Shown here: positions 5,285 through 60,964 of the stretch, one piece after another
How positions within the stretch are numbered: the stretch's first letter is position 1
Layout of the letters: each line of letters begins with the position of its first letter
Position numbers and translations under genes: made by a program
Notes under the pieces: model-generated
Database searches by the model: none
What the model saw: only the letters and a program-made list of their open reading frames with translations
What the model was told of the DNA's origin: nothing
Assembly (NCBI GenBank): GCA_041666045.1
Contig: JBAYHR010000004.1
Location: 4,996-68,995, forward strand
DNA length: 64,000 bases
DNA from: Minisyncoccota bacterium
Lineage (GTDB): Bacteria > Patescibacteriota > Minisyncoccia > Phycocordibacterales > UBA9973
Direction: 5' to 3'

Positions 5285-5287
5285 AAA

Positions 5288-5316
5288 AATCCTTACGTCA
5301 GTAAGGATTTTTTTAT
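5288..5316. terminator. Rho-independent terminator between convergent genes
   Basis: Perfect 9-bp stem aatccttac/gtaaggatt with 4-nt loop, flanked by an A-run and a T-run. Confidence 0.7.
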
Positions 5317-21750: not shown

Positions 21751-24084
21751 TTATAATTTCTTTGCCTTAATTCTTAATGAATTTGAAACGACCGATACAC
21801 TAGATAATGCCATGGCCATCCCTGCAAAAATTGGATTAAGTAGCCAACCAAATATTGGATAAAAAATCCCTGTTGCAAGTGGAATACCTATAACGTTGTA
21901 GAAAAATGCCCAAAAAAGATTCTGTCTTATTCCACGCATAGTAATTTTAGACAATTTTATAGCTTTAGCAAGTTTTGAAATGTCTCCGTATAAAAGCGTA
22001 ATTCCTGCAGATTCTATCGCTACATCTGTGCCTGTGCCCATTGCTATACCTACATCAGCTTGTGCAAGCGCTGGAGCATCATTTACGCCATCTCCAGCCA
22101 TAGCGACAATCTTACCTTCTGCTTGTAAAGACTTAATAGTATCTAATTTATCTTCTGGCATTACCTCGGCTAATACTTCATCAATGCCAACTTGTTTTGC
22201 AATATATTCTGCTGTTTGTTTATTATCTCCTGTAAGCATTATAATTTTAACTCCAAGCTTGTGAAGTTCAGCAACTGCCTGCATTGATTCTTTTTTTATA
22301 GAATCTGCAATCATAATAAAACCAAGAACTTTTTCCTTCGTCATTAAAACAACTGGCGTCTTTCCTTCCAATGTAAATTTATCTAATTGCGCTGTATCAA
22401 AAGAAATTTTTAAATCATTTATCAATCCAACACTACCAATAAAATATTCTGTATTATTTATTAATCCTTTTAACCCTCTTCCTTTTATGCTTTCAAAATT
22501 GGAAACTTCTTTTAGTTGAATTTTCTTTTCTTTAGAATAATTTAATATTGCATGAGCAATCGGATGTTCTGATTTATTTTCCAAAGACGCAAGAATAGAA
22601 ATCTGATCTACATCTAAATTTTGTATATCAATAAGTTCTGGTTTACCTTTTGTTATTGTTCCTGTTTTATCTACTACTACAACATTTACCTTATGAAGTT
22701 TTTCCAATGTTGCAGCGTCTTTTATTAAAATTCCTTCTTTTGCTCCTTTACCAACTCCCACAATAATAGCAGTTGGTGTAGCAAGTCCAAGCGCACAAGG
22801 ACAAGCTATCACAAGAACACTAACAAACGAAACAAGACCTAAAGACAAAGCGCTAGATAAGCCAAGCGTGCTTGAACCAAGAAATATCCACAAACCTAAT
22901 GACAAAAATGAAATAACTAAAACAATCGGTACAAAAATTCCTGAAATTTTATCCGCTAATGCTTGAATCGGTGCTTTACTACCTTGCGCTTCTTCAACCA
23001 TTTTTATTATATGTGCAAGCAAAGTCTCAAATCCTACTTTCGTAGCTTTAAAATTAAATGACCCGCTAGTATTTATCGTCCCTGCGGAAACTGTATCATT
23101 TATTTCTTTATGAACTGGCATAGGCTCTCCAGTTATCATTGATTCATCTATATACGAACTCCCTTCCACTACTACTCCATCGACAGCTATCTTAGACCCT
23201 GGTTTAACGACAATAATATCTCCGTGTACAACTTCATTTACAGAAATTTCAACTTCTTGTCCACCTCTTACAACCAAAGCTGTCTTTGCTTGCAAATTTG
23301 AAAGTTGTTCTATAGCATCTCCTGTTTTTAATTTTGATTTAGCTTCTAAATATTTTCCTAAAGTTATAAAAGCAATGACGATAATAGTAATATCAAAATA
23401 AGTTTGATCTACATTTAAAAAATCCTGAAGTTGCGTAGAAAAAAAGGTAATTATCATACTGTATAAGTATGCGACTGAAGTTCCTATTCCTATCAACGTA
23501 TCCATATTTGCTCTACCATAACGCAAAAATCTATACACCCCTAAAAGATATGGCTTACCTACAAAGAACAACATATATGTAGCCATAACTGGCAACATAT
23601 AAACAAAAAGTTTTTTAATTAAAATAGATGGCTCAGATACTAATTCATATTTCATTAAAATATCCCAAACCATTACAAAAAGACTAATTATTGCAAGTGG
23701 TATTGCAGACATTACTTTTAATTTCATACTATTTATTTCAGCAAGTTTATCTTTTTTATTTTGACCTATTCCTGTATGCGCCTTATGTTCATCTTCACTC
23801 ATCCCCATCCCGTTAGAGGCAGAGGGTCGCTGCGAGCCCTCGCGGCCTCTAACGGGACCCATACTCTCTGCAGTCTCAGTAATTAAAGAATACCCTAAGT
23901 GTTCTATGTTTTTAGAAAGATTCTCCACATTAATTTTATTTTCATCAAAAGATAATTTTGCAGATTCATTCCCATAATTCACTTCAGCCGAAATTACTCC
24001 ATCTATTTTCTTAAATGTCTTTTCTATTATTCCTGCGCATGAAGCACAATGCATTCCTTTTATTTTGTAAATATTTTTTATCAT
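21751..24084 (-). CDS. copA: Copper-translocating P1B-type ATPase CopA
   Basis: N-terminal HMA GMHCASCAG; CPC motif; DKTGT; GDGVNDAP; 777 aa. Confidence 0.9.
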   Translation of the reverse strand: MIKNIYKIKGMHCASCAGIIEKTFKKIDGVISAEVNYGNESAKLSFDENKINVENLSKNIEHLGYSLITETAESMGPVRGREGSQRPSASNGMGMSEDEHKAHTGIGQNKKDKLAEINSMKLKVMSAIPLAIISLFVMVWDILMKYELVSEPSILIKKLFVYMLPVMATYMLFFVGKPYLLGVYRFLRYGRANMDTLIGIGTSVAYLYSMIITFFSTQLQDFLNVDQTYFDITIIVIAFITLGKYLEAKSKLKTGDAIEQLSNLQAKTALVVRGGQEVEISVNEVVHGDIIVVKPGSKIAVDGVVVEGSSYIDESMITGEPMPVHKEINDTVSAGTINTSGSFNFKATKVGFETLLAHIIKMVEEAQGSKAPIQALADKISGIFVPIVLVISFLSLGLWIFLGSSTLGLSSALSLGLVSFVSVLVIACPCALGLATPTAIIVGVGKGAKEGILIKDAATLEKLHKVNVVVVDKTGTITKGKPELIDIQNLDVDQISILASLENKSEHPIAHAILNYSKEKKIQLKEVSNFESIKGRGLKGLINNTEYFIGSVGLINDLKISFDTAQLDKFTLEGKTPVVLMTKEKVLGFIMIADSIKKESMQAVAELHKLGVKIIMLTGDNKQTAEYIAKQVGIDEVLAEVMPEDKLDTIKSLQAEGKIVAMAGDGVNDAPALAQADVGIAMGTGTDVAIESAGITLLYGDISKLAKAIKLSKITMRGIRQNLFWAFFYNVIGIPLATGIFYPIFGWLLNPIFAGMAMALSSVSVVSNSLRIKAKKL
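23809..23856. mobile_element. 48-bp GC-rich palindromic mini-element inserted in frame in copA (CCCGTTAGAGGC...GCCTCTAACGGG)
   Basis: About 70% GC in a 30% GC gene; 12-bp terminal inverted repeat related to the MITE family TIR; flanked by CCCCAT/ACCCAT (ATGGGK on the coding strand); encodes PVRGREGSQRPSASNG in the HMA-TM1 linker. Confidence 0.6.
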
Positions 24085-24085
24085 T

Positions 24086-24349
24086 TTATTTTCTCTTAAG
24101 CTGATAAACTTTTAATATTTCTTTTGTGGCTTTAGCTGTTTGCCCTTTTTTAATTTGATTAATTAAACAATGCCCCAAATGTCCTTCCATAAGCATATCT
24201 TCAATATTTGAAAGACCTTGCTTAACAGCAGAAGTTTGAGTAATAACATCTATGCAATATTTGTCATTTTCTATCATATTCAAAAGACCTCTCACCTGCC
24301 CTTCTATTATTTTTAATCTATGCGCAATTTTTTGTTTATTATTTTGCAT
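24086..24349 (-). CDS. csoR: CsoR family copper-sensing transcriptional repressor
   Basis: 87 aa; RLKIIEGQVRGL, YCIDVITQ and HLGHC (Cys-His-Cys ligands) of CsoR/RcnR. Confidence 0.8.
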   Translation of the reverse strand: MQNNKQKIAHRLKIIEGQVRGLLNMIENDKYCIDVITQTSAVKQGLSNIEDMLMEGHLGHCLINQIKKGQTAKATKEILKVYQLKRK

Positions 24350-36140: not shown

Positions 36141-36169
36141 TCACAAATTCCTTTCTGCTTCAATAAACA
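36141..36169 (-). repeat. 29-bp direct repeat TCACAAATTCCTTTCTGCTTCAATAAACA (copy at RT 3' end)
   Basis: Identical to 39904-39932 at the prfB 3' end; encodes FIEAERNL plus TGA on the minus strand. Confidence 0.85.
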
Positions 36170-37163
36170 TACTAAGTTTATACCCATTCCCATGCCCCAG
36201 CATCCCCAAATACGAAGCAATGGTATTAGGTTTTTGATTATTCTTTAAATTCCTAAACATCCTTTTCTTTGTGCTATTTCGTAATACTCTGTGTTTAGGA
36301 AAATGTACCCAGCCTAAGAAATCCACACCTGAATAAATAGTTTTAATAAAAACTTTATCTGGATGCATAGTTAATTTTAATTCATTTTCTAAAAACTCTT
36401 TCATTTGTTCTAAAATATTTTCCAAATAATTTTTGTCTTGCGATAATATAACAAAATCATCAGCGTATCTTATATAATATTTCACTTTCAATTTATGTTT
36501 TACAAATTGATCAAATTCATTCATATAGATATTTACAAGGAGTTGAGAAGTTAAATTACCCAAAGGCAAACCTTTTGAAAGTGACACAAACTCTGCCATG
36601 GCAGAGTTTGTGTCACTTGTATAAAAACTATCTATAATATTATCTAAAAGCCAAATGATATCTTTATCTTTTATAAATTTTACTAAAATACTTTTTAAAA
36701 TATTATGATCAATACTCGCAAAGAATTTTTTAATATCACATTTTAAAACCCAACAGGTTTTTGAATTATTTTTACTAACTTTGCGAAAATAATCCCTAAA
36801 CTTATTCATTCCCTTATGAGTACCTTTCCATTTACGGCAAGAATATGAATCACTGATAAATTTTGAATCAAAGAAAAAATACATTTTTTGATAAAGAGCG
36901 TGATGCAATATCCTGTCACAAACAATGGCTTTATGTATATCACGAGGTTTTGGATCAGAAATTTTAAAAGCATAATATCCTGAATGTTTATAATTTTTTG
37001 TTTTTAAATCATTGTGAAGTTTTAATAAATTTTCCATTAAATTTCTTTGCCAAATTTGAACATCTTTTTTATTTGATTTTTCGCTCCTAAAATTTTTCCA
37101 CGCCAAAAGTAAATTTTCCAAAGATATGATATCATTGTAACTATGAATAAAAGTTTTTATCAT
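36141..37163 (-). CDS. Diversity-generating retroelement reverse transcriptase
   Basis: RT motifs including YIRYADDFVIL (YxDD) and the DGR-specific LGxxxSQ (LPLGNLTSQ); 340 aa; the last 8 codons are shared with prfB. Confidence 0.85.
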   Translation of the reverse strand: MIKTFIHSYNDIISLENLLLAWKNFRSEKSNKKDVQIWQRNLMENLLKLHNDLKTKNYKHSGYYAFKISDPKPRDIHKAIVCDRILHHALYQKMYFFFDSKFISDSYSCRKWKGTHKGMNKFRDYFRKVSKNNSKTCWVLKCDIKKFFASIDHNILKSILVKFIKDKDIIWLLDNIIDSFYTSDTNSAMAEFVSLSKGLPLGNLTSQLLVNIYMNEFDQFVKHKLKVKYYIRYADDFVILSQDKNYLENILEQMKEFLENELKLTMHPDKVFIKTIYSGVDFLGWVHFPKHRVLRNSTKKRMFRNLKNNQKPNTIASYLGMLGHGNGYKLSMFIEAERNL

Positions 37164-37176
37164 TCTTCTGATATTA

Positions 37177-37187
37177 CCCCCCCCCCC
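37177..37187. repeat. C11 homopolymer in the 31-bp divergent RT/avd intergenic region
   Basis: Direct reading; striking in a ~30% GC genome. Confidence 0.8.
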
Positions 37188-37194
37188 GACGATT

Positions 37195-37545
37195 TTGCCA
37201 GTTATGCAAAGGGTAAAAACTGTGTATATCCTATGGTTTGAATATTATAAAAAATTAGAAAAAACACACAAATACACGCTTGGTCAAAAAATTGATAATT
37301 TATTTATAGAAATAATAGAAGCCGTATCAATTGCCACATTTTTAGATAAAACAGAAAAACAACCCTGGATAAGACTTGCAATACGGAAATTAGATACAAT
37401 AAAAATACTTTTAATGATACTTTGGGAAACAAAATCTCTTGATAATAAAAAATATATAAACATTTCCAAACCAATAGATGAAATAGGCAGAATGCTCGGT
37501 GGTTGGAATGGACAGCTTACAAAACAAAACTCTCCCAATAAATAG
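37195..37545 (+). CDS. avd: DGR accessory variability determinant (Avd, four-helix-bundle protein)
   Basis: 116 aa basic protein; C-terminal IDEIGRMLGGWNGQL matches the Avd/TIGR02436 EVGRILGSWI region; helical pattern. Confidence 0.7.
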   Translation: MPVMQRVKTVYILWFEYYKKLEKTHKYTLGQKIDNLFIEIIEAVSIATFLDKTEKQPWIRLAIRKLDTIKILLMILWETKSLDNKKYINISKPIDEIGRMLGGWNGQLTKQNSPNK

Positions 37546-37563
37546 GGAGAGAAATGAAAAGAG

Positions 37564-37696
37564 TTGCGAGAGAGAAAAACAAAGCGATTGTTGCCACTCC
37601 ACTTGTTGTCTAAATTCCCATTATTGTTGTTAAGCCACAACCCATCGTTATTGCATTCCACATTGAAAATCCTAGGATTGCCATCGCGATCAGTAT
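37564..37696 (-). repeat. DGR template repeat (TR)
   Basis: 133-bp direct repeat of the VR; differs from the VR only at positions that are A on the sense (minus) strand. Confidence 0.85.
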
Positions 37697-48054: not shown

Positions 48055-48387
48055 TTATGCAACATTAAACTTCTCAAAAACCTGAAATACGTCCACTGTT
48101 TTCTTCCTAATATCAATCTCGTCGTCATATACGATAAGCATTTCAAGCGAAGAATGTCGGCTAAACTTTCTTACGTCTCTGACATCAAGTTTTTTGAGCA
48201 AGGCAGTAATGAAGAAGTGGCGAAATCCGTGAACTCCTTTTTCAATCCCAACTTCTTTACACAAAGAACCTAGCTGGCGTTTTATTGTCATTGTGGTTAT
48301 CCTTTCACTTTTTCTATTTCCCATACTTTTAAACAAAGCTCCACTTCCGACTTTATTAGTTTTTATGTATTCTCTCAAAACATTCAC
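48055..48387 (-). pseudogene. Truncated tyrosine recombinase/integrase (C-terminal catalytic fragment only)
   Basis: HGFRHFFITALL (box II HxxR) and SRHSSLEMLIVY (catalytic Tyr region); the usual N-terminal ~250 aa are absent. Confidence 0.6.
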
Positions 48388-48409
48388 AGTTTGCGGTGCT
48401 AAATAAATA

Positions 48410-48438
48410 TGCTAAGCAAGGACGGTCCTTGCTATCCA
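48410..48438. repeat. 29-bp direct repeat (candidate att, copy 2)
   Basis: Exact match to 43398-43426. Confidence 0.7.
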
Positions 48439-48512
48439 GAGATTGAACCGGAGACCTCGTTTCCGCCAGAGGCGGACAAGCTTACCAAGAAATGCGGCAT
48501 TTATCCCGTAAG
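48439..48512 (-). other. Partial duplicate of the tRNA-Thr(GGT) 3' half (anticodon loop to T-arm) with a 19-nt insertion after the anticodon loop
   Basis: TTCTTGGTAAG[CTTGTCCGCCTCTGGCGGA]AACGAGGTC matches the tRNA segment TTCTTGGTAAGAACGAGGTC; there is not enough 5' sequence for a complete tRNA. Confidence 0.5.
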
Positions 48513-48585
48513 AGCCGACAATCAGATTTGCACTGATGACCTCGTTCTTACCAAGAACGTGCTCTACTACCTGAGCTATGTCGGC
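48513..48585 (-). tRNA. tRNA-Thr (anticodon GGT) with atypical T-loop (TGCAAAT)
   Basis: Manual fold: acceptor GCCGACA/TGTCGGC, D-arm GCTC-AGGTAGT-AGAGC, anticodon stem CGTTC/GAACG with loop TTGGTAA, T-stem ATCAG/CTGAT; positions 55 and 57 are non-canonical. Confidence 0.7.
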
Positions 48586-49757: not shown

Positions 49758-49797
49758 ATATTAATTATAACATATTGTAAAATATGCCTAATCTTGC

Positions 49798-49871
49798 GCG
49801 ACCGACCGGATTTGAACCGGCAACCTCCCGCGTGACAGGCGGGTGCTCTAACCAGTTGAGCTACGATCGCA
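49798..49871 (-). tRNA. tRNA-Asp (anticodon GTC)
   Basis: Manual fold: acceptor GCGATCG/CGGTCGC, anticodon stem CCCGC/GCGGG with loop CTGTCAC, T-arm GCCGG-TTCAAAT-CCGGT. Confidence 0.8.
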
Positions 49872-50063
49872 TTATTAATACATAAACAGATATTTTATTT
49901 TACCACACAATCGTTCCGCCTAGGCGGGTGCTCGCTATAGTCTGGTCTGAGTTGAGCTACGATCGCATTATTAATACATAAACAGATATTTTATTTTACC
50001 ACACAATCGTTCCGCCTAGGCGGGTGCTCGCTATAGTCTGGTCTGAGTTGAGCTACGATCGCA
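49872..50063 (-). repeat. Tandem duplication, 2 x 96 bp, each unit carrying a tRNA-Asp 5'-fragment (acceptor plus D-arm) fused to unrelated sequence
   Basis: Units 49872-49967 and 49968-50063 are identical; each ends with GCGATCGTAGCTCAAC (the tRNA-Asp 5' end) but lacks a foldable 3' half. Confidence 0.8.
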
Positions 50064-50110
50064 GATATTTATTAAATTAACATAAAACAGAAAAAATATC
50101 TATTTTACTG

Positions 50111-50184
50111 TGTCGACGGGTGGAGTTGAACCACCGACCTTGGCTTTATGAGTGCCATGCTCTAACCACCTGAGCTACGTCGAC
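50111..50184 (-). tRNA. tRNA-Met or tRNA-Ile2 (anticodon CAT), elongator type
   Basis: G1-C72 paired; anticodon loop CTCATAA; T-arm GGTGG-TTCAACT-CCACC. Confidence 0.7.
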
Positions 50185-50279
50185 ATAGTTGTCAGAATAT
50201 CATATTTTAATATTTTTTCAAATTCCTTTGCAAAAAATCTTATTTTGTAATACAATGCAAAATACGTTGTGTTTTATAT

Positions 50280-50350
50280 AGCGGGGTAGAGAAGAGGCAT
50301 CTCGTAAGGCTCATAACCTTAAGACCCACGTTCGATTCGTGGCCCCGCAA
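50280..50350 (+). tRNA. tRNA-Met (anticodon CAT) with 1:72 mismatch (A:A) and A73, possible initiator
   Basis: U8, A14, G18G19; anticodon stem TAAGG/CCTTA with loop CTCATAA; T-arm CCACG-TTCGATT-CGTGG. Confidence 0.65.
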
Positions 50351-50360
50351 CAATAATAAA

Positions 50361-50993
50361 TTAAATAAATCCAAATTCACGGAAAACTTGCTCATATAAA
50401 GCAACTACCCTTTTTGCTTCCCTACTTGTAAGTTCAAATTGTAAACCTTCATGCGCTATTCTGTTTCTTACAATATGGGCTTCCCAAGCATCATCAACAC
50501 TGCGAAACCTATCTCTATCAATCATTTTTAATTTTTCTCCCAGATTCTCTCCCTTATATCCAAGTTGATCCAGCAACGCTTCAAGCATAGAATCTGCTTC
50601 TATTATTGCAACTTTCCAATCAGCTGAATTTTCTGAAAAAAGATGATCTAATACTCCTTCCCATCTTTTATTTTTTTGTCCTTCTCCTTTATTCATCAAT
50701 GCCTTTTCTTTTTCAGCTTGCTTTTGTGCGTATAATGCAATTTGTTGATGTAAAAATTCTTTTTCTTTTTTTCTTATTTCAAATATGCGAATAGCGCAAT
50801 AAATAATTATAATAAGAAAAAATAATGCAAGAAAAAAAAGTATAAATTTTAAAATACCTACAAATTCAGCATTAAAAAGATTACGAAAAAAATTAAGAAT
50901 TTGATTGAATAAATATTCCAAATTCAAAAAAGTTGGATCAAAAAGTTTATTTTGAGTAGCTGTATTTAAATTTAATGATTGTGATAAATCCAT
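50361..50993 (-). CDS. Membrane-anchored HEPN-like (DUF4145-type) protein
   Basis: N-terminal TM; C-terminal helical domain with RNRIAHE (Rx4H HEPN motif). Confidence 0.45.
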   Translation of the reverse strand: MDLSQSLNLNTATQNKLFDPTFLNLEYLFNQILNFFRNLFNAEFVGILKFILFFLALFFLIIIIYCAIRIFEIRKKEKEFLHQQIALYAQKQAEKEKALMNKGEGQKNKRWEGVLDHLFSENSADWKVAIIEADSMLEALLDQLGYKGENLGEKLKMIDRDRFRSVDDAWEAHIVRNRIAHEGLQFELTSREAKRVVALYEQVFREFGFI

Positions 50994-51111
50994 CCCGTTA
51001 GAAATAGGAAATCTTTAGATTTCCGTAGTTAATTTATTAATAATAATTTCTATGCACTTCATAATTTATATATCCCACGAAACACAACTTAACTTTTTGA
51101 TTTCTAACGGG
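50994..51111. mobile_element. MITE-like element, copy 1 (118 bp; TIR CCCGTTAGAAAT; TSD ATCCAT)
   Basis: Terminal inverted repeats, internal palindrome GGAAATCTTTAGATTTCC, flanked by a 6-bp direct repeat; sits between the gatA stop and the downstream gene start. Confidence 0.75.
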
Positions 51112-51118
51112 ATCCATA

Positions 51119-52526: not shown

Positions 52527-52799
52527 TTACATAATCTTTTTTACTTTAATAAAACCATCCTGCGAATCTGGAAATTGATTAATTATTAATTCACTAGAAA
52601 AAACCGAAGAAATCGGCACATCTTCTCGCCAAACATTTTTATTTTCATATTCTATATTTACATCTTTTACCTCAATAGATTCTATTTGCTTCACATAACC
52701 TAAAATACCATCTAAATCTTTTAATAAAGTTTCCTTTTCTGTATCTGAAATCTCTATTTTAGCAAGCTCTGCAAGCTTTTCTACATCTTTAATTTCCAT
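52527..52799 (-). CDS. gatC: Glutamyl/aspartyl-tRNA amidotransferase subunit C
   Basis: 90 aa; position directly upstream of gatA. Confidence 0.75.
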   Translation of the reverse strand: MEIKDVEKLAELAKIEISDTEKETLLKDLDGILGYVKQIESIEVKDVNIEYENKNVWREDVPISSVFSSELIINQFPDSQDGFIKVKKIM

Positions 52800-52916
52800 C
52801 CCGTTTAGAAACAGGTCGCGGTCTATTTCAAAAAATAAACTACTCCTGTCTTACTTATTTAAATAATAATACAACACAATACCCCCTTAAAAACTGCGAC
52901 CGCGGTTTCTAACGGG
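52800..52916. mobile_element. MITE-like element, copy 2 (117 bp; same TIR; TSD TCCAT)
   Basis: CCCGTTTAGAAAC...GTTTCTAACGGG with extended GC-rich inverted arms AGGTCGCGGT/ACCGCGACC; lies between the htpX stop and the gatC start. Confidence 0.75.
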
Positions 52917-52943
52917 ATCCATTATTAGATTATAGCAAAAATT

Positions 52944-59406: not shown

Positions 59407-59964
59407 TTATTGCTGAGTTTTTTGTTTATTTAACTTCTTATATAAAAATCTGACTAAATAAGCAGTTAAAATTCCCAAAATAAAACCTCCTAAAATATCA
59501 ATTGGGAAATGCACTCCTGCGACAATACGAGCTACTCCAATTAATAATGCAAAAAATATAAATAAATAACCAATTTTTTTGTGACTGAAAAATATAGCAA
59601 AAGCTAAAGCCATATAGAATGTCGCATGACCAGACGGAAAAGCAAAACCTGTTTCCGGAATAAGACTTGATACATTTTGAAATTCTACAAATGGTCTAGG
59701 TGTATGAATTAACAATTTTAAAACTTGTGAAATACACCAAGCAAAAATTCCAGAGAAAAAAACCAAAACAATTTCCTTCCATCTTTTTGCAAAAACTTTA
59801 AAAGGATTTTTTGAAAGTAAAACATCATGGTGAAAAAGTAAAAATATTCCCGCCAAAAAAATTACAATATAAGGAAAAGTATGTGCTATAAAAACAACAA
59901 ATTTATCGAAAAATTCTGATCTATGAGCTAAATTATAAAAAAAGAAAAAAATTGTATTATTCAT
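59407..59964 (-). CDS. PAP2 family phosphatase (undecaprenyl-diphosphatase-like)
   Basis: KxxxxxxRP-like, PSGH (FPSGHATF), and SRxxxxxHxxxD-like (RIVAGVHFPID) motifs. Confidence 0.75.
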   Translation of the reverse strand: MNNTIFFFFYNLAHRSEFFDKFVVFIAHTFPYIVIFLAGIFLLFHHDVLLSKNPFKVFAKRWKEIVLVFFSGIFAWCISQVLKLLIHTPRPFVEFQNVSSLIPETGFAFPSGHATFYMALAFAIFFSHKKIGYLFIFFALLIGVARIVAGVHFPIDILGGFILGILTAYLVRFLYKKLNKQKTQQ

Positions 59965-60081
59965 CCCGTTAGAAATAGGAAATCTTTAGATTTCCGTAGT
60001 TAATTTATTAATAATGACTTCTATATACTTCATAATTGTTTATCTTACAAAACACAACTTAACTTTTTAATTTCTAACGGG
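59965..60081. mobile_element. MITE-like element, copy 3 (117 bp; TSD ATTCAT); supplies the last codons and stop of folD
   Basis: About 90% identical to copy 1; flanked by a 6-bp direct repeat; the folD reading frame ends NESR-TAG inside the element TIR. Confidence 0.75.
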
Positions 60082-60964
60082 ATTCATTGTATGTTTGTTT
60101 TAAATTATTTTTTGCTACATTTACTACATTTTTCAATAACATAGCTACAGCCACAGGCCCCACTCCCCCAGGCACAGGCGAAACAAAACTCGCAACATCT
60201 TTCACTGAATCCAAATCAACATCTCCAACGATAGCACCATTTTCTTCAGAAGTTCCAGCATCTATTATCACAACTCCGCTCTTGACCATATCACCTGTAA
60301 TATATTTTCCATTCCCCATTCCAGAAATTATTATATCAGCTTGTTTTATAAGATCTTCTTTATTCTCCCCGCCTGCATCGCTATGCGAAGCATTGCGGGC
60401 AGGTGTTTTGCGAGTAATCACTTTTGGATTCAACCCACGAAATTTAAGAAGTGCCGTAACGGGTTTTCCCACTAATTCACCTTGACCTAAAACAACTATT
60501 TTTTTACTTTTTAAATCTAAATTCAAAGAATCTAAAATCTCCATACAAGAAAGCGGAGCTGGCAGACCTAAATCTATTTTTCCACCATAAAATTCTTTAC
60601 TCCTCTCTTCTCCTAAACAATCAACATCAAGACTAGGATCAATCGCATCTAAAATCTTTTTTTTATCTAAAGATTCTGGAAGTGGAAGTTGAATAATTAT
60701 TCCACACATATTTGGCATTTTATTTAAAATTTTTATTTCTTCCACAAGCTCATTGGTAGATATAGTTGAAGGAAAAATAGCATCATGGAAACTAATGCCG
60801 ACAGATTCTGCTGTACGCTTTTTCATACGCACATATTGAGTTGAAGCTAAATCATCACCAATAAGCACATCGCAAAAAATAGGCTTAAACGATAAAGAAG
60901 CCACATCTTTTTTTAATTTAGATAAAATTTCATCGCGTATTTTTCTCCCGTTAATTATTTTCAT
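60074..60964 (-). CDS. folD: Bifunctional methylenetetrahydrofolate dehydrogenase/cyclohydrolase FolD (with 13-aa GC-rich insertion)
   Basis: FolD core motifs (YVRMKKR, GGVGP); 296 aa; insertion PARNASHSDAGGE relative to canonical FolD. Confidence 0.9.
   Translation of the reverse strand: MKIINGRKIRDEILSKLKKDVASLSFKPIFCDVLIGDDLASTQYVRMKKRTAESVGISFHDAIFPSTISTNELVEEIKILNKMPNMCGIIIQLPLPESLDKKKILDAIDPSLDVDCLGEERSKEFYGGKIDLGLPAPLSCMEILDSLNLDLKSKKIVVLGQGELVGKPVTALLKFRGLNPKVITRKTPARNASHSDAGGENKEDLIKQADIIISGMGNGKYITGDMVKSGVVIIDAGTSEENGAIVGDVDLDSVKDVASFVSPVPGGVGPVAVAMLLKNVVNVAKNNLKQTYNESR

What the first reader, a model, noticed from the sequence alone, without database searches (positions are those of the whole stretch)
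23803..23862. In-frame insertion of a 48-bp GC-rich palindromic mini-element, related to the MITE TIR, inside copA
CCCGTTAGAGGCAGAGGGTCGCTGCGAGCCCTCGCGGCCTCTAACGGG is ~70% GC in a ~30% GC gene. Its 12-bp terminal inverted repeat shares CCCGTTAGA with the MITE family. It is flanked by ATGGGT/ATGGGG on the coding strand, again ATGR-type and here an internal Met-Gly. It adds PVRGREGSQRPSASNG (plus a duplicated MG) to the linker between the N-terminal metal-binding domain and TM1 without breaking the frame. This is the same phenomenon as Rickettsia palindromic elements inserted in frame into protein-coding genes.
Basis: seen in the sequence. Interest (0 to 1): 0.75.

Follow-up and report, generated by a model that had tools for sequence, protein, structure and literature searches.

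The report
Tiny hairpin transposon inserted in copA
A 50-bp GC-rich hairpin-shaped mobile DNA element has landed in frame inside a copper-pump gene of an ultra-small (CPR) bacterium, adding 18 harmless amino acids, and it belongs to a large family of such mini-elements, for which I found no description, spread across many bacterial phyla.

Summary
A 48-bp, 71% GC palindrome lies at 23809-23856, in frame inside a 777-aa CopA gene that is 32.5% GC without it.

The closest orthologues (about 95% identical) have an empty site. The window has exactly 54 extra bp at that point. This resolves into a 50-bp element, T-CCCG...CGGG-A, plus a 4-bp target duplication (TGGG).

The element belongs to a very large family, YCCCGTTAGA...TCTAACGGGR. 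Members are 26 to about 125 bp long and duplicate 4 bp of target with consensus TNNA. They occur in Patescibacteria, Omnitrophota, Planctomycetota, Nitrospirota and other phyla.

- 64% of copies have lengths divisible by 3.
- About a quarter sit in frame inside intact housekeeping genes.
- The same 48-bp subfamily occupies the same CopA Met-Gly site in six other, scattered CopA lineages. This points to recurrent insertion, not ancestry.
- The stem is kept by compensatory changes.
- The added peptide lies in a low-confidence linker of the predicted structure.

No transposase was found. The 4-bp duplication and CC..GG ends fit the IS1380/piggyBac signature, but that link is untested.

One correction: the general target is TNNA, not ATG.

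The related AT-rich MITE subfamily sits exactly at start codons in 49 of 49 complete public copies, matching the window's own MITEs.

The parts
23808..23857 (-). The mini-element itself: a 50-bp imperfect palindrome, T-CCCGTTAGAGGC...GCCTCTAACGGG-A. It has a 13-bp terminal stem, a GC-rich inner stem and 70.8% GC. On the coding strand it encodes PVRGREGSQRPSASNG.
   Evidence: The terminal pair T/A covaries with C/G in 20 of 20 copies. Across the family, base -1 is Y in 164 of 167 copies and base +1 is R in 167 of 167.
23858..23861 (-). Upstream copy (in gene direction) of the 4-bp target-site duplication. It reads TGGG on the coding strand. It is preceded by A at 23862, giving the upstream Met-Gly codons ATG GGt.
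   Evidence: Empty-site comparison with L003. Flank statistics: positions -5..-2 equal +2..+5 in 73-80% of 167 elements.
23804..23807 (-). Downstream copy of the 4-bp duplication (TGGG). The element's terminal A at 23808 plus TG regenerates the conserved Met of the CopA MGM motif.
   Evidence: M93-G94-M95 are at least 90% conserved in 71 CopA sequences.
21751..24084 (-). Host gene: copA (P1B-type heavy-metal ATPase, 777 aa). It is intact. The insert lies between the HMA domain (aa 6-65) and the first helix (from about aa 97).
   Evidence: In the AlphaFold model, residues 70-108 have pLDDT below 50 and are coil.
24086..24349 (-). csoR-type metal-sensing repressor directly upstream of copA. This is operon context, not part of the element.
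   Evidence: The same gene order appears in L001-L006.
50993..51112 (-). Related AT-rich MITE: 118-bp core with ends T-CCCGTTAGAAAT...ATTTCTAACGGG-A and duplication TGGA. It sits exactly at the start codon of ORF 50361-50993.
59964..60082 (-). Second copy of the same MITE: 117-bp core, duplication TGAA. It sits at the start codon of the PAP2 gene (59407-59964). The upstream folD-like ORF now ends at the TAG inside the terminal repeat.
52799..52917 (-). Third related element. Its left end has a 1-nt insertion (CCCGTTTAGA), and its subterminal GGTCGCGG/CCGCGACC resembles the GC-rich mini-elements. Duplication TGGA. It sits at the start codon of gatC (52527-52799).

Best explanation
The 50-bp GC-rich hairpin in copA is a copy of a non-autonomous, terminal-inverted-repeat mini-transposon (a very small MITE).

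**How it got there.** The family has ends YCCCGTTAGA...TCTAACGGGR and is mobilised in trans. Insertion follows a 4-nt staggered cut of the target. Family-wide the preferred target is R|TNNA|Y. Here it was A|TGGG|G, which is the Met-Gly codons of the conserved MGM motif in the linker between the metal-binding domain and the first membrane helix. Repair of the stagger duplicated TGGG.

**Why the gene survives.**
- 50 + 4 = 54 bp were added, which is a multiple of 3.
- The reading frame entered (ATG GGT CCC GTT AGA...) is one of the two open frames of the terminal repeat.
- The element's terminal A plus the duplicated TG rebuilds the Met codon.
- The result is 18 extra hydrophilic residues in a flexible linker.

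**Shown here:** insertion relative to close orthologues, the duplication, family membership, the multi-copy and multi-host distribution, in-frame tolerance, and retention of the hairpin by compensatory change.

**Inferred:** cut-and-paste by a DDE-type transposase. The most likely class is IS1380/piggyBac-like, because that superfamily combines 4-bp duplications with CC..GG termini. Translation of the insert is also inferred rather than observed. I put about 0.85 on a mobile-element insertion and about 0.3 on this enzyme class.
For: **Insertion in copA**
- Empty site in the ~95%-identical orthologue, and exactly +54 bp in the window.
- Seven CopA carriers each have nearest relatives (74-95% identical) without the insert.
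- Insert DNA is 82% identical among carriers (76% at third codon positions). The adjacent 150 nt of copA is 58% identical (39% at third positions).
- The insert lies in residues 70-108, which have pLDDT below 50 and are coil.

**Family**
They hold 122 elements of 39-68 bp from many phyla.
- Among 167 elements with CCCGTTAGA/TCTAACGGG ends in the genome loci, the CopA loci and the window: the 4-bp duplication is identical in 73-80%, T is first in 130 and A is last in 126, and the outer bases are Y/R.
- The terminal pair covaries, C-G in 11 copies and T-A in 9, with no mismatches.
- Eight stem pairs show double changes against 2.7 expected in shuffles (0 of 500 shuffles reach 8).
- 107 of 167 lengths are divisible by 3 (p = 6e-16).

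**In-frame tolerance**
- 43 of 175 elements lie in frame inside long ORFs.
- The 48-bp subfamily interrupts Pfam-recognisable FolD, TsaD, FBP aldolase, YchF, ComEC, RluA-type, oxidoreductase and glycosyltransferase genes. It does so in both orientations and in two frames.

**Non-autonomy**
- No long copy or transposase was found in about 1.3 Mb of loci or in the 71-kb source contig.

**Enzyme class**
- IS1380 and piggyBac share 4-bp duplications and CC..GG termini (PMC10045372).

**Not already described**
- No Rfam family matches.
Against: - No cognate transposase or full-length parent was found, so the enzyme class rests only on end and duplication signatures.
- The extra, covarying outer base (T...A or C...G) and the TNNA (not TTAA) target differ from canonical piggyBac.
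- The copA target TGGG departs from the TNNA consensus.
- Seven hits at one site could also reflect homing-like site preference or repeated precise loss. I could not separate these from hot-spot insertion followed by selection.
- Translation of the insert is inferred from frame and length only. No proteomic or RNA data were available.
- Complementarity is kept beyond the ~10-bp conserved ends. An ordinary transposase binding site would not need that, which hints that a single-strand hairpin matters.
Confidence: 0.8

Rival explanations
1. REP/REPIN-like hairpin element moved as single-stranded DNA by an HUH (RAYT / IS200-IS605-type) enzyme, not by a DDE transposase.
For: - The element is essentially one hairpin, and some members are only 26-28 bp.
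- Stem complementarity is maintained by compensatory changes well beyond the conserved ends.
- There is no transposase in cis.
- Many small bacterial palindromic repeats have orphan or trans-acting enzymes (my own knowledge).
Against: - A regular 4-bp target duplication with a palindromic-consensus target is not produced by Y1 HUH transposases. Those insert 3' of a fixed tetra- or pentanucleotide without duplication (established knowledge of IS200/IS605 and REP/RAYT).
- No conserved GTAG-type head is present.
- No RAYT-like gene is flanked by the repeats in the loci I examined.
Confidence: 0.1
2. The segment is an ancestral CopA linker sequence, or was spread by recombination between copA genes. 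Under this view most lineages lost it, and it is not a transposon insertion.
For: - Six other CopA proteins (69-71% identical to the window's CopA) carry a near-identical peptide at exactly the same position.
Against: - Carriers are scattered, and every carrier's nearest relatives lack the insert.
- The insert DNA is far more conserved than neighbouring synonymous sites.
- Flanks next to the insert are not unusually similar between carriers (33% ungapped identity upstream).
- The same DNA occurs in at least 9 unrelated genes, in the opposite orientation where it encodes a different peptide, and in non-coding DNA.
- It has a target duplication.
Confidence: 0.04
3. The hairpin is not translated. 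Instead it is skipped or removed at the RNA or ribosome level. This would resemble the bypassed 'byp' GC-rich inserts of yeast mitochondria or the phage T4 gene 60 gap, with the duplicated AUGGG serving as matched take-off and landing codons.
For: - A very stable RNA hairpin (-37.4 kcal/mol) is bracketed by identical codons (AUG GG / AUG GG).
- It is a GC-rich palindrome in an AT-rich genome.
- The family also sits between duplicated AUG codons at gene starts.
- The analogy to byp elements and gene 60 comes from my own knowledge.
Against: - The insert has no stop codon and preserves the frame.
- Family-wide, 64% of lengths are multiples of 3, and every intragenic copy found is open in frame. 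That is the signature of selection on translated inserts. Bypassed inserts need neither property.
Confidence: 0.04
4. Assembly or sequencing artefact: a chimeric hairpin or adaptor-like sequence.
For: Palindromes can arise as fold-back artefacts.
Against: - The same contig occurs in independent records, NCBI/JGI and ENA.
- Related copies occur in hundreds of assemblies from different projects and assemblers, with diverse interiors, target duplications and intact reading frames.
Confidence: 0.01

Closest known systems
Rickettsia palindromic elements (RPEs)
   Same: Both are small palindromic repeats found many times inside unrelated housekeeping genes. Both are in frame, add a peptide segment without destroying the protein, and have no known transposase (PMC10969869; for this family).
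   Different: RPEs are about 100-150 bp and confined to Rickettsia. This family is 26 to about 125 bp (48 bp here). It has sharply defined 10-13-bp ends (YCCCGTTAGA) and a clear 4-bp TNNA duplication, and it spans several phyla. I did not compare the sequences to RPEs.
Prokaryotic MITEs in general (Correia/CREE, ERIC, RUP, QMITE, Nezha)
   Same: Short, non-coding, with terminal inverted repeats, a target-site duplication, many copies, able to fold into a hairpin, and occasionally intragenic.
   Different: - Much smaller, down to just the two repeats.
- Length strongly biased to multiples of 3.
- Two of the three frames through the repeat are open.
- One subfamily sits only at start codons and rebuilds the ATG.
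- Distribution crosses phyla.
IS1380 family / piggyBac superfamily
   Same: 4-bp (occasionally 5-bp) target duplication and 5'-CC...GG-3' termini (PMC10045372). From memory, the piggyBac end CCCTAGAAAG resembles CCCGTTAGAAAT, and its TTAA target is one case of TNNA.
   Different: - No transposase was found.
- An extra covarying outer base (Y...R) precedes CCC.
- The target is TNNA with free middle bases, not TTAA.
- The resemblance of the ends is recalled from memory, not tested.
GC clusters of yeast mitochondrial DNA (including the in-frame cluster in var1) and mitochondrial 'byp' elements
   Same: GC-rich palindromic mini-inserts in a very AT-rich genome. They are polymorphic between close relatives and sometimes lie inside protein-coding genes (my own knowledge).
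   Different: Different hosts and sequences. The byp elements are bypassed rather than translated, whereas these inserts are frame-preserving and stop-free.
REP/REPIN elements with RAYT transposases
   Same: Hairpin-forming, with compensatory evolution of the stem, and an enzyme that acts in trans.
   Different: REPs are extragenic, carry a GTAG-type head and make no target duplication. This family makes a 4-bp duplication and is often intragenic.

Membership tests
MITE (miniature inverted-repeat transposable element) | Short (tens to a few hundred bp) with no transposase gene | tested here: met
   The copA copy is 50 bp. Family members are 26 to about 125 bp and contain no ORF.
MITE (miniature inverted-repeat transposable element) | Terminal inverted repeats | tested here: met
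   A 13-bp perfect terminal stem in the copA copy. The ends YCCCGTTAGA/TCTAACGGGR are conserved across the family.
MITE (miniature inverted-repeat transposable element) | Target-site duplication, with an empty site in relatives | tested here: met
   The 4-bp duplication is identical in 73-80% of 167 copies. An empty copA site is present in L003 and in most orthologues.
MITE (miniature inverted-repeat transposable element) | Multiple copies at unrelated sites | tested here: met
   4 copies in the window. 51 matches (49 complete copies) of one subfamily in metagenomes.
MITE (miniature inverted-repeat transposable element) | A cognate autonomous IS with the same ends | tested here: inconclusive
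   None was found in about 1.3 Mb of loci or in the 71-kb contig. Public collections could not be searched for repeat pairs 1-3 kb apart.
Rickettsia palindromic elements | Palindromic repeat inserted in frame in many unrelated protein genes | tested here: met
   43 of 175 copies are intragenic and in frame. The 48-bp subfamily is in FolD, TsaD, FBP aldolase, YchF, ComEC and others.
Rickettsia palindromic elements | Belongs to the RPE sequence families of Rickettsia (~100-150 bp) | tested here: not met
   The host is Paceibacterota. The size is 48-50 bp. Ends and duplication are of a different type. No sequence comparison to RPEs was run. It works like an RPE but is not one.
IS1380/piggyBac-derived element | 4-bp target duplication | tested here: met
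   A few 5-bp cases appear.
IS1380/piggyBac-derived element | 5'-CC...GG-3' termini | tested here: inconclusive
   CCCG...CGGG is invariant, but it is preceded and followed by a covarying Y...R pair that behaves as part of the element.
IS1380/piggyBac-derived element | Mobilised by an IS1380- or piggyBac-type DDE/DDD transposase carrying the same ends | not tested
   No transposase profile search of the host genomes was possible with the remaining caps.
REP/REPIN-RAYT | No target duplication, a conserved GTAG-like head, extragenic location | tested here: not met
   A regular 4-bp duplication is present. There is no GTAG head. Copies are frequently intragenic.
Described RNA families (Rfam 15) | Match to a curated covariance model | tested here: not met
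   Only tRNAs matched in the window at gathering score. Nothing matched the elements in 8 loci at E <= 0.1.

The most novel reading that the evidence does not exclude
The YCCCGTTAGA family may be a cross-phylum lineage of mini-transposons that has evolved to be compatible with coding sequence.

**Features that fit this reading**
- Lengths are multiples of 3.
- The two reading frames through the terminal repeat that have no stop are the ones found in intragenic copies.
- Terminal bases rebuild ATG or GTG.

These features would let the elements colonise the gene-dense genomes of CPR bacteria, Omnitrophota and Planctomycetota by sitting inside proteins and exactly at start codons.

**Speculative extension.** The elements may be moved by a prokaryotic piggyBac/IS1380-like enzyme that excises seamlessly. 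In-frame inserts such as the one in CopA would then be reversible, recurrent and a steady source of new loops and linkers.

**The start-codon subfamily.** It was at a start codon in 49 of 49 complete public copies, with fixed orientation. It would then be a mobile 5'-end module for genes that lack a Shine-Dalgarno sequence or are leaderless.
Probability: 0.2. Interest if true: 0.85.

Novelty: new member of a known kind. Interest (0 to 1): 0.62.

Why it matters
In-frame palindromic inserts in proteins have been regarded as a peculiarity of Rickettsia and a few other lineages. This finding shows the same phenomenon, with a much smaller and better-defined element, in the streamlined genomes of CPR bacteria and in several other phyla that appear in the same kinds of metagenome assemblies.

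- **Annotation.** It explains some of the unexplained short insertions in CPR proteins.
- **Population genomics.** It gives a simple sequence tag (YCCCGTTAGA...TCTAACGGGR plus a 4-bp repeat) for finding recent insertions.
- **Hot spots.** It shows recurrent insertion at one conserved protein site, the CopA MGM motif.
- **Mechanism.** It offers a candidate system for asking how mobile DNA persists where almost no non-coding DNA is available.
- **Translation.** The start-codon-restoring subfamily bears on how translation starts in organisms that largely lack Shine-Dalgarno sequences.

Tried and rejected
**Autonomous parent.** I looked for pairs of family ends 130-6000 bp apart with matching flanks, allowing up to 2 mismatches. 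All proved to be separate small elements flanking ordinary genes (ackA, a ribosomal protein operon, gatCA) or chance matches. ORFs next to solitary ends are not transposase-like by inspection.

**Metagenome scan.** I scanned with the left 25 nt of the window's MITE, hoping to catch a full-length relative. All 49 complete copies are 74-123 bp.

**Source contig.** Pfam annotation of the whole 71-kb contig shows no transposase. It shows only a 110-aa integrase fragment and a DGR-type reverse transcriptase.

**Peptide search.** I searched the large protein database with the four peptides the element can encode. Only 61 candidates came back and 3 had E > 1.

**Other searches.**
- Viral contigs gave one hit only.
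- Rfam matched nothing.
- Literature searches by sequence string and by keywords found no description.

**Ideas rejected.**
- A 6-bp duplication: the outer positions match in only 43-44% of copies.
- ATG as the general target.
- A tyrosine-recombinase core-site reading of the flanking repeats. It remains possible in principle, but the overlap sequence varies from copy to copy.
- My test for frame-shifting (non-3n) intragenic copies was not decisive.
Full report
**1. The observation**

The sequence CCCGTTAGAGGCAGAGGGTCGCTGCGAGCCCTCGCGGCCTCTAACGGG is at window 23809-23856. It is 70.8% GC. The surrounding gene is 32.5% GC without it, and the window averages about 30% GC.

The element lies inside ORF 21751-24084 on the minus strand, which encodes 777 aa. 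Pfam finds HMA (aa 6-65), E1-E2_ATPase and HAD hydrolase domains, so this is a CopA-type P1B ATPase. A csoR-type repressor gene lies directly upstream.

The insert is in frame and reads ...ETAESMG-PVRGREGSQRPSASNG-MGMSEDEH....

The 9-mer CCCGTTAGA occurs seven times in the window against 0.11 expected. Besides the two ends of the copA element, it marks the ends of three elements of about 117 bp:
- 50994-51111
- 52800-52916, whose left end has a 1-nt insertion
- 59965-60081

The element folds into a long hairpin at -37.4 kcal/mol as RNA (z = -4.8) and -19.4 kcal/mol as DNA.

**2. It is an insertion, and its anatomy can be fixed to the base**

The window comes from a Candidatus Paceibacterota (Patescibacteria/CPR) MAG. 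An identical CopA is on record from NCBI and JGI.

The four closest full-length or near-full-length CopA orthologues (92-93% identity by BLASTP, about 95% over aligned columns) are 752-759 aa. Three are 759 aa, exactly 18 shorter than the window's 777, and they read ...ETAESMGMSEDEH....

At DNA level the empty site in L003 is GAGAGT ATGGGG ATGAGT. The window has GAGAGT ATGGGT [48 bp] ATGGGG ATGAGT, which is exactly 54 bp more.

The palindrome really extends one base further on each side (T...A). Statistics on 167 family members show three things:
- The base before CCCG is Y in 164 copies, and the base after CGGG is R in all 167.
- Positions -5..-2 equal +2..+5 in 73-80% of copies.
- The next positions outward match in only 43-44%.

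In the 48-bp subfamily the outer pair is C-G in 11 copies and T-A in 9, and it is never mismatched.

The element is therefore 50 bp (23808-23857), flanked by a 4-bp target-site duplication. The duplication reads TGGG on the coding strand and lies at 23858-23861 and 23804-23807. The element's terminal A plus the duplicated TG rebuilds the Met codon of the conserved MGM motif.

**3. It belongs to a very large family that crosses phyla**

I scanned one genome per species with CCCGTTAGAG-N(18-48)-CTCTAACGGG.

The hosts include many Patescibacteria classes, Omnitrophota, Planctomycetota, Nitrospirota, Cloacimonadota and Bdellovibrionales, plus one archaeal bin.

Interiors are very diverse. One large group has two internal hairpins closed by the terminal stem. 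Some members are only 26-28 bp, which is just the two repeats.

The duplicated 4 bp have consensus T-N-N-A: T is first in 130 of 167 copies and A is last in 126. The flanking target bases are weakly R and Y. The target is therefore not ATG in general.

The 48-bp GC-rich subfamily has the core CGCGAGGGCTCGCAGCG, the same as in copA. It recurs nearly unchanged in Saccharibacteria, Nomura-, Azam- and Giovannonibacteria and others, at unrelated sites. The host contigs range from 35 to 62% GC.

No Rfam family matches these elements. Full-text searches by sequence string and by keywords found no description.

**4. The family is tolerated inside genes**

Element length is divisible by 3 in 107 of 167 copies, which is 64% against an expected 33% (p = 6e-16).

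43 of 175 copies lie in frame inside ORFs that extend at least 50 codons on both sides.

Of the three frames through the terminal repeat, two are open and one has TAG:
- PVR...SNG, used 33 times
- PLE...LTG, used 9 times

The 48-bp subfamily interrupts otherwise recognisable genes for FolD, TsaD, class II FBP aldolase, YchF, ComEC, a pseudouridine synthase, a pyridine-nucleotide oxidoreductase, a glycosyltransferase and an O-antigen-ligase-like protein.

It occurs in both orientations and in two frames, so it gives at least three different peptides. What is conserved is therefore the DNA, not a peptide.

In the AlphaFold model of the window's CopA, residues 70-108 are coil with pLDDT below 50. 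They lie between the HMA domain and the first helix. This fits an insert in a flexible, exposed linker. Low confidence is consistent with disorder but does not prove it.

**5. The same CopA site is hit repeatedly**

Among the 120 best CopA hits, six further proteins (69-71% identical to the window's) carry a related insert at exactly the same MG|MS position.

Their DNA shows the same 48-bp palindrome preceded by T and followed by ATGGG.

The palindrome is kept by compensatory changes:
- AGAGGC/GCCTCT in the window, AGAGAT/ATCTCT in L001 and AGAGAC/GTCTCT in L005
- centre GAGGGC...CCCTC in the window and GAAGAC...GTCTTC in L004

Over 20 copies, 93% of cells are paired, and 8 pairs show double changes against 2.7 in shuffles (0 of 500 shuffles reach 8). 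Slid controls give 0-2.

Each carrier's nearest relatives (74-95% identical) lack the insert, and carriers are no closer to each other than to non-carriers.

The insert is 82% identical among carriers (76% at third codon positions). The next 150 nt of copA are 58% identical (39% at third positions).

The pattern nevertheless argues for at least seven independent gains, or for gains followed by precise losses, at a site that protein constraint keeps constant. M93-G94-M95 are at least 90% conserved.

I could not determine why this non-consensus site (TGGG) is a hot spot. Both a site preference of the T...A-ended variant for A|TG.. targets and survival only in a tolerant linker remain possible.

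**6. Mechanism**

*Shown:* terminal inverted repeats, a 4-bp duplication, an empty site in relatives, many copies, and no coding capacity. These are the defining features of a MITE, and all were tested and met.

*Not found:* a transposase. The searches that failed were these:
- Long pairs of ends turned out to be separate small elements around normal genes.
- Solitary ends have no transposase-like neighbours.
- All 49 complete copies retrieved with the window MITE's left end are 74-123 bp.
- The 71-kb source contig has no Pfam transposase.

*Inferred:* trans-mobilisation by a DDE-type enzyme that makes 4-nt staggered cuts. A 4-bp duplication combined with CC...GG termini is the stated signature of the IS1380/piggyBac superfamily (PMC10045372). 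From memory, the piggyBac end CCCTAGAAAG and its TTAA target also resemble CCCGTTAGAAAT and TNNA. This is a lead, not a test. I put about 0.3 on this enzyme class.

Complementarity is maintained beyond the conserved ends. This keeps open a single-strand hairpin substrate and an HUH-type rival. However, HUH Y1 enzymes do not make target duplications.

**7. Rivals**

- An ancestral linker or recombinational spread is contradicted by sections 4 and 5.
- Translational bypass or RNA-level removal is suggested by the strong hairpin between identical AUGGG codons. It is unnecessary here and is contradicted by the multiple-of-3, stop-free signature.
- An artefact is excluded by independent records and assemblies.

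**8. Comparison with what is known**

The element works like the Rickettsia palindromic elements, which are about 150 bp and frequently in frame in metabolic genes (PMC10969869). It is not a member of those families. It differs in host, size, ends and duplication.

It is a MITE by every structural criterion. I rate it a new member of a known kind.

The unusual aspects are:
- very small size
- distribution across phyla
- bias of length to multiples of 3
- recurrent same-site insertion
- the start-codon subfamily described below

**9. Seen in passing**

*Start-codon MITEs.* The AT-rich relatives in the window all sit exactly at start codons, with the arrangement ATGNNT[element]ATGNN. In public metagenomes, all 49 complete copies of that subfamily are immediately upstream of an ATG that opens an ORF of at least 50 codons or one cut off by the contig end. 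Their orientation relative to the gene is fixed.

The upstream ATG is often preceded by a TATAAT box 6-8 nt away, and it almost never has a Shine-Dalgarno-like motif (3 of 51). This suggests leaderless-type starts. In this organism Shine-Dalgarno-like motifs are rare anyway.

In the genome sample, T...A-ended elements adjoin TG/CA more often than C...G-ended ones: 16 of 37 against 20 of 115 (p = 0.003).

*Prepilin gene.* In L088 an element sits in frame in a prepilin leader and regenerates the G-FTLIEL cleavage motif.

**Verdict**

The finding is a real and apparently undescribed family of coding-compatible mini-transposons. The mobilising enzyme is unknown.

Noticed in passing
window 50993-51112, 52799-52917, 59964-60082; loci L129-L175: The AT-rich MITE subfamily (CCCGTTAGAAATAGGAAATC...) always sits exactly at a start codon, arranged as ATGNNT[element]ATGNN. 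This holds for all 3 elements in the window and for 49 of 49 complete metagenome copies. Orientation relative to the gene is fixed: the GGAAATCTTTAGATTTCC hairpin end is next to the gene in the 114-123-bp class. A short ORF that starts at the upstream ATG stops inside the element.
   Followed up: partly
loci L129-L175 (upstream of the elements); window genes overall: Genes carrying the start-codon MITE mostly have a TATAAT box 6-8 nt upstream of the upstream ATG, and only 3 of 51 have a Shine-Dalgarno-like motif. That is a leaderless-type arrangement. In the window as a whole, only 3-6 of 63 genes have a Shine-Dalgarno-like motif.
   Followed up: partly
window 60074-60964 (-): The folD-like gene upstream of the 59965 MITE originally overlapped the next gene's start (ATGAATAA). 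It now terminates at the TAG inside the element's terminal repeat, which gives it a slightly altered C-terminus.
   Followed up: partly
window ~36141-37600 (-), palindrome 36579-36618: A DGR-like pair is present: a bAvd accessory protein and a 340-aa reverse transcriptase (RVT_1). A perfect 40-bp palindrome (AAGTGACACAAACTCTGCCA|TGGCAGAGTTTGTGTCACTT) lies inside the RT ORF.
   Followed up: no
window ~48151-48516 and tRNA genes 49797-50350: A 110-aa Phage_integrase fragment lies beside a cluster of three tRNA genes. About 20 nt from its start there is a degenerate end-like sequence, CCCGTAAGAGCC (48505-48516).
   Followed up: no
L088 6777-6827 and 7893-7943: Identical 51-bp elements are inserted in frame in the leader of two tandem prepilin-type genes (KKSFT|PLE...SLTG|FTLIELL). 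The element supplies the Gly of the G-FTLIEL prepilin cleavage motif, so the insert would be removed with the leader peptide.
   Followed up: partly
L107 ~1694-1720, L117 ~5285-5311, L103 3440-3467: Minimal family members of only 26-28 bp consist of the two ~12-bp terminal repeats and a 3-6-nt loop.
   Followed up: no
L031 4799-7737; L046 4459-6287: Elements sit in several intergenic junctions of a ribosomal-protein operon (Omnitrophota) and on both sides of ackA (Planctomycetaceae). They can mimic a composite transposon.
   Followed up: partly
L014, L022, L034, L046, L063, L070, L092, L093 and others: A large subfamily has a 14-16-bp terminal stem (CCCGTTAGAGACAGG...) closing two internal hairpins whose stems differ between copies but stay paired. 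This is a three-way-junction shape with no Rfam match.
   Followed up: partly
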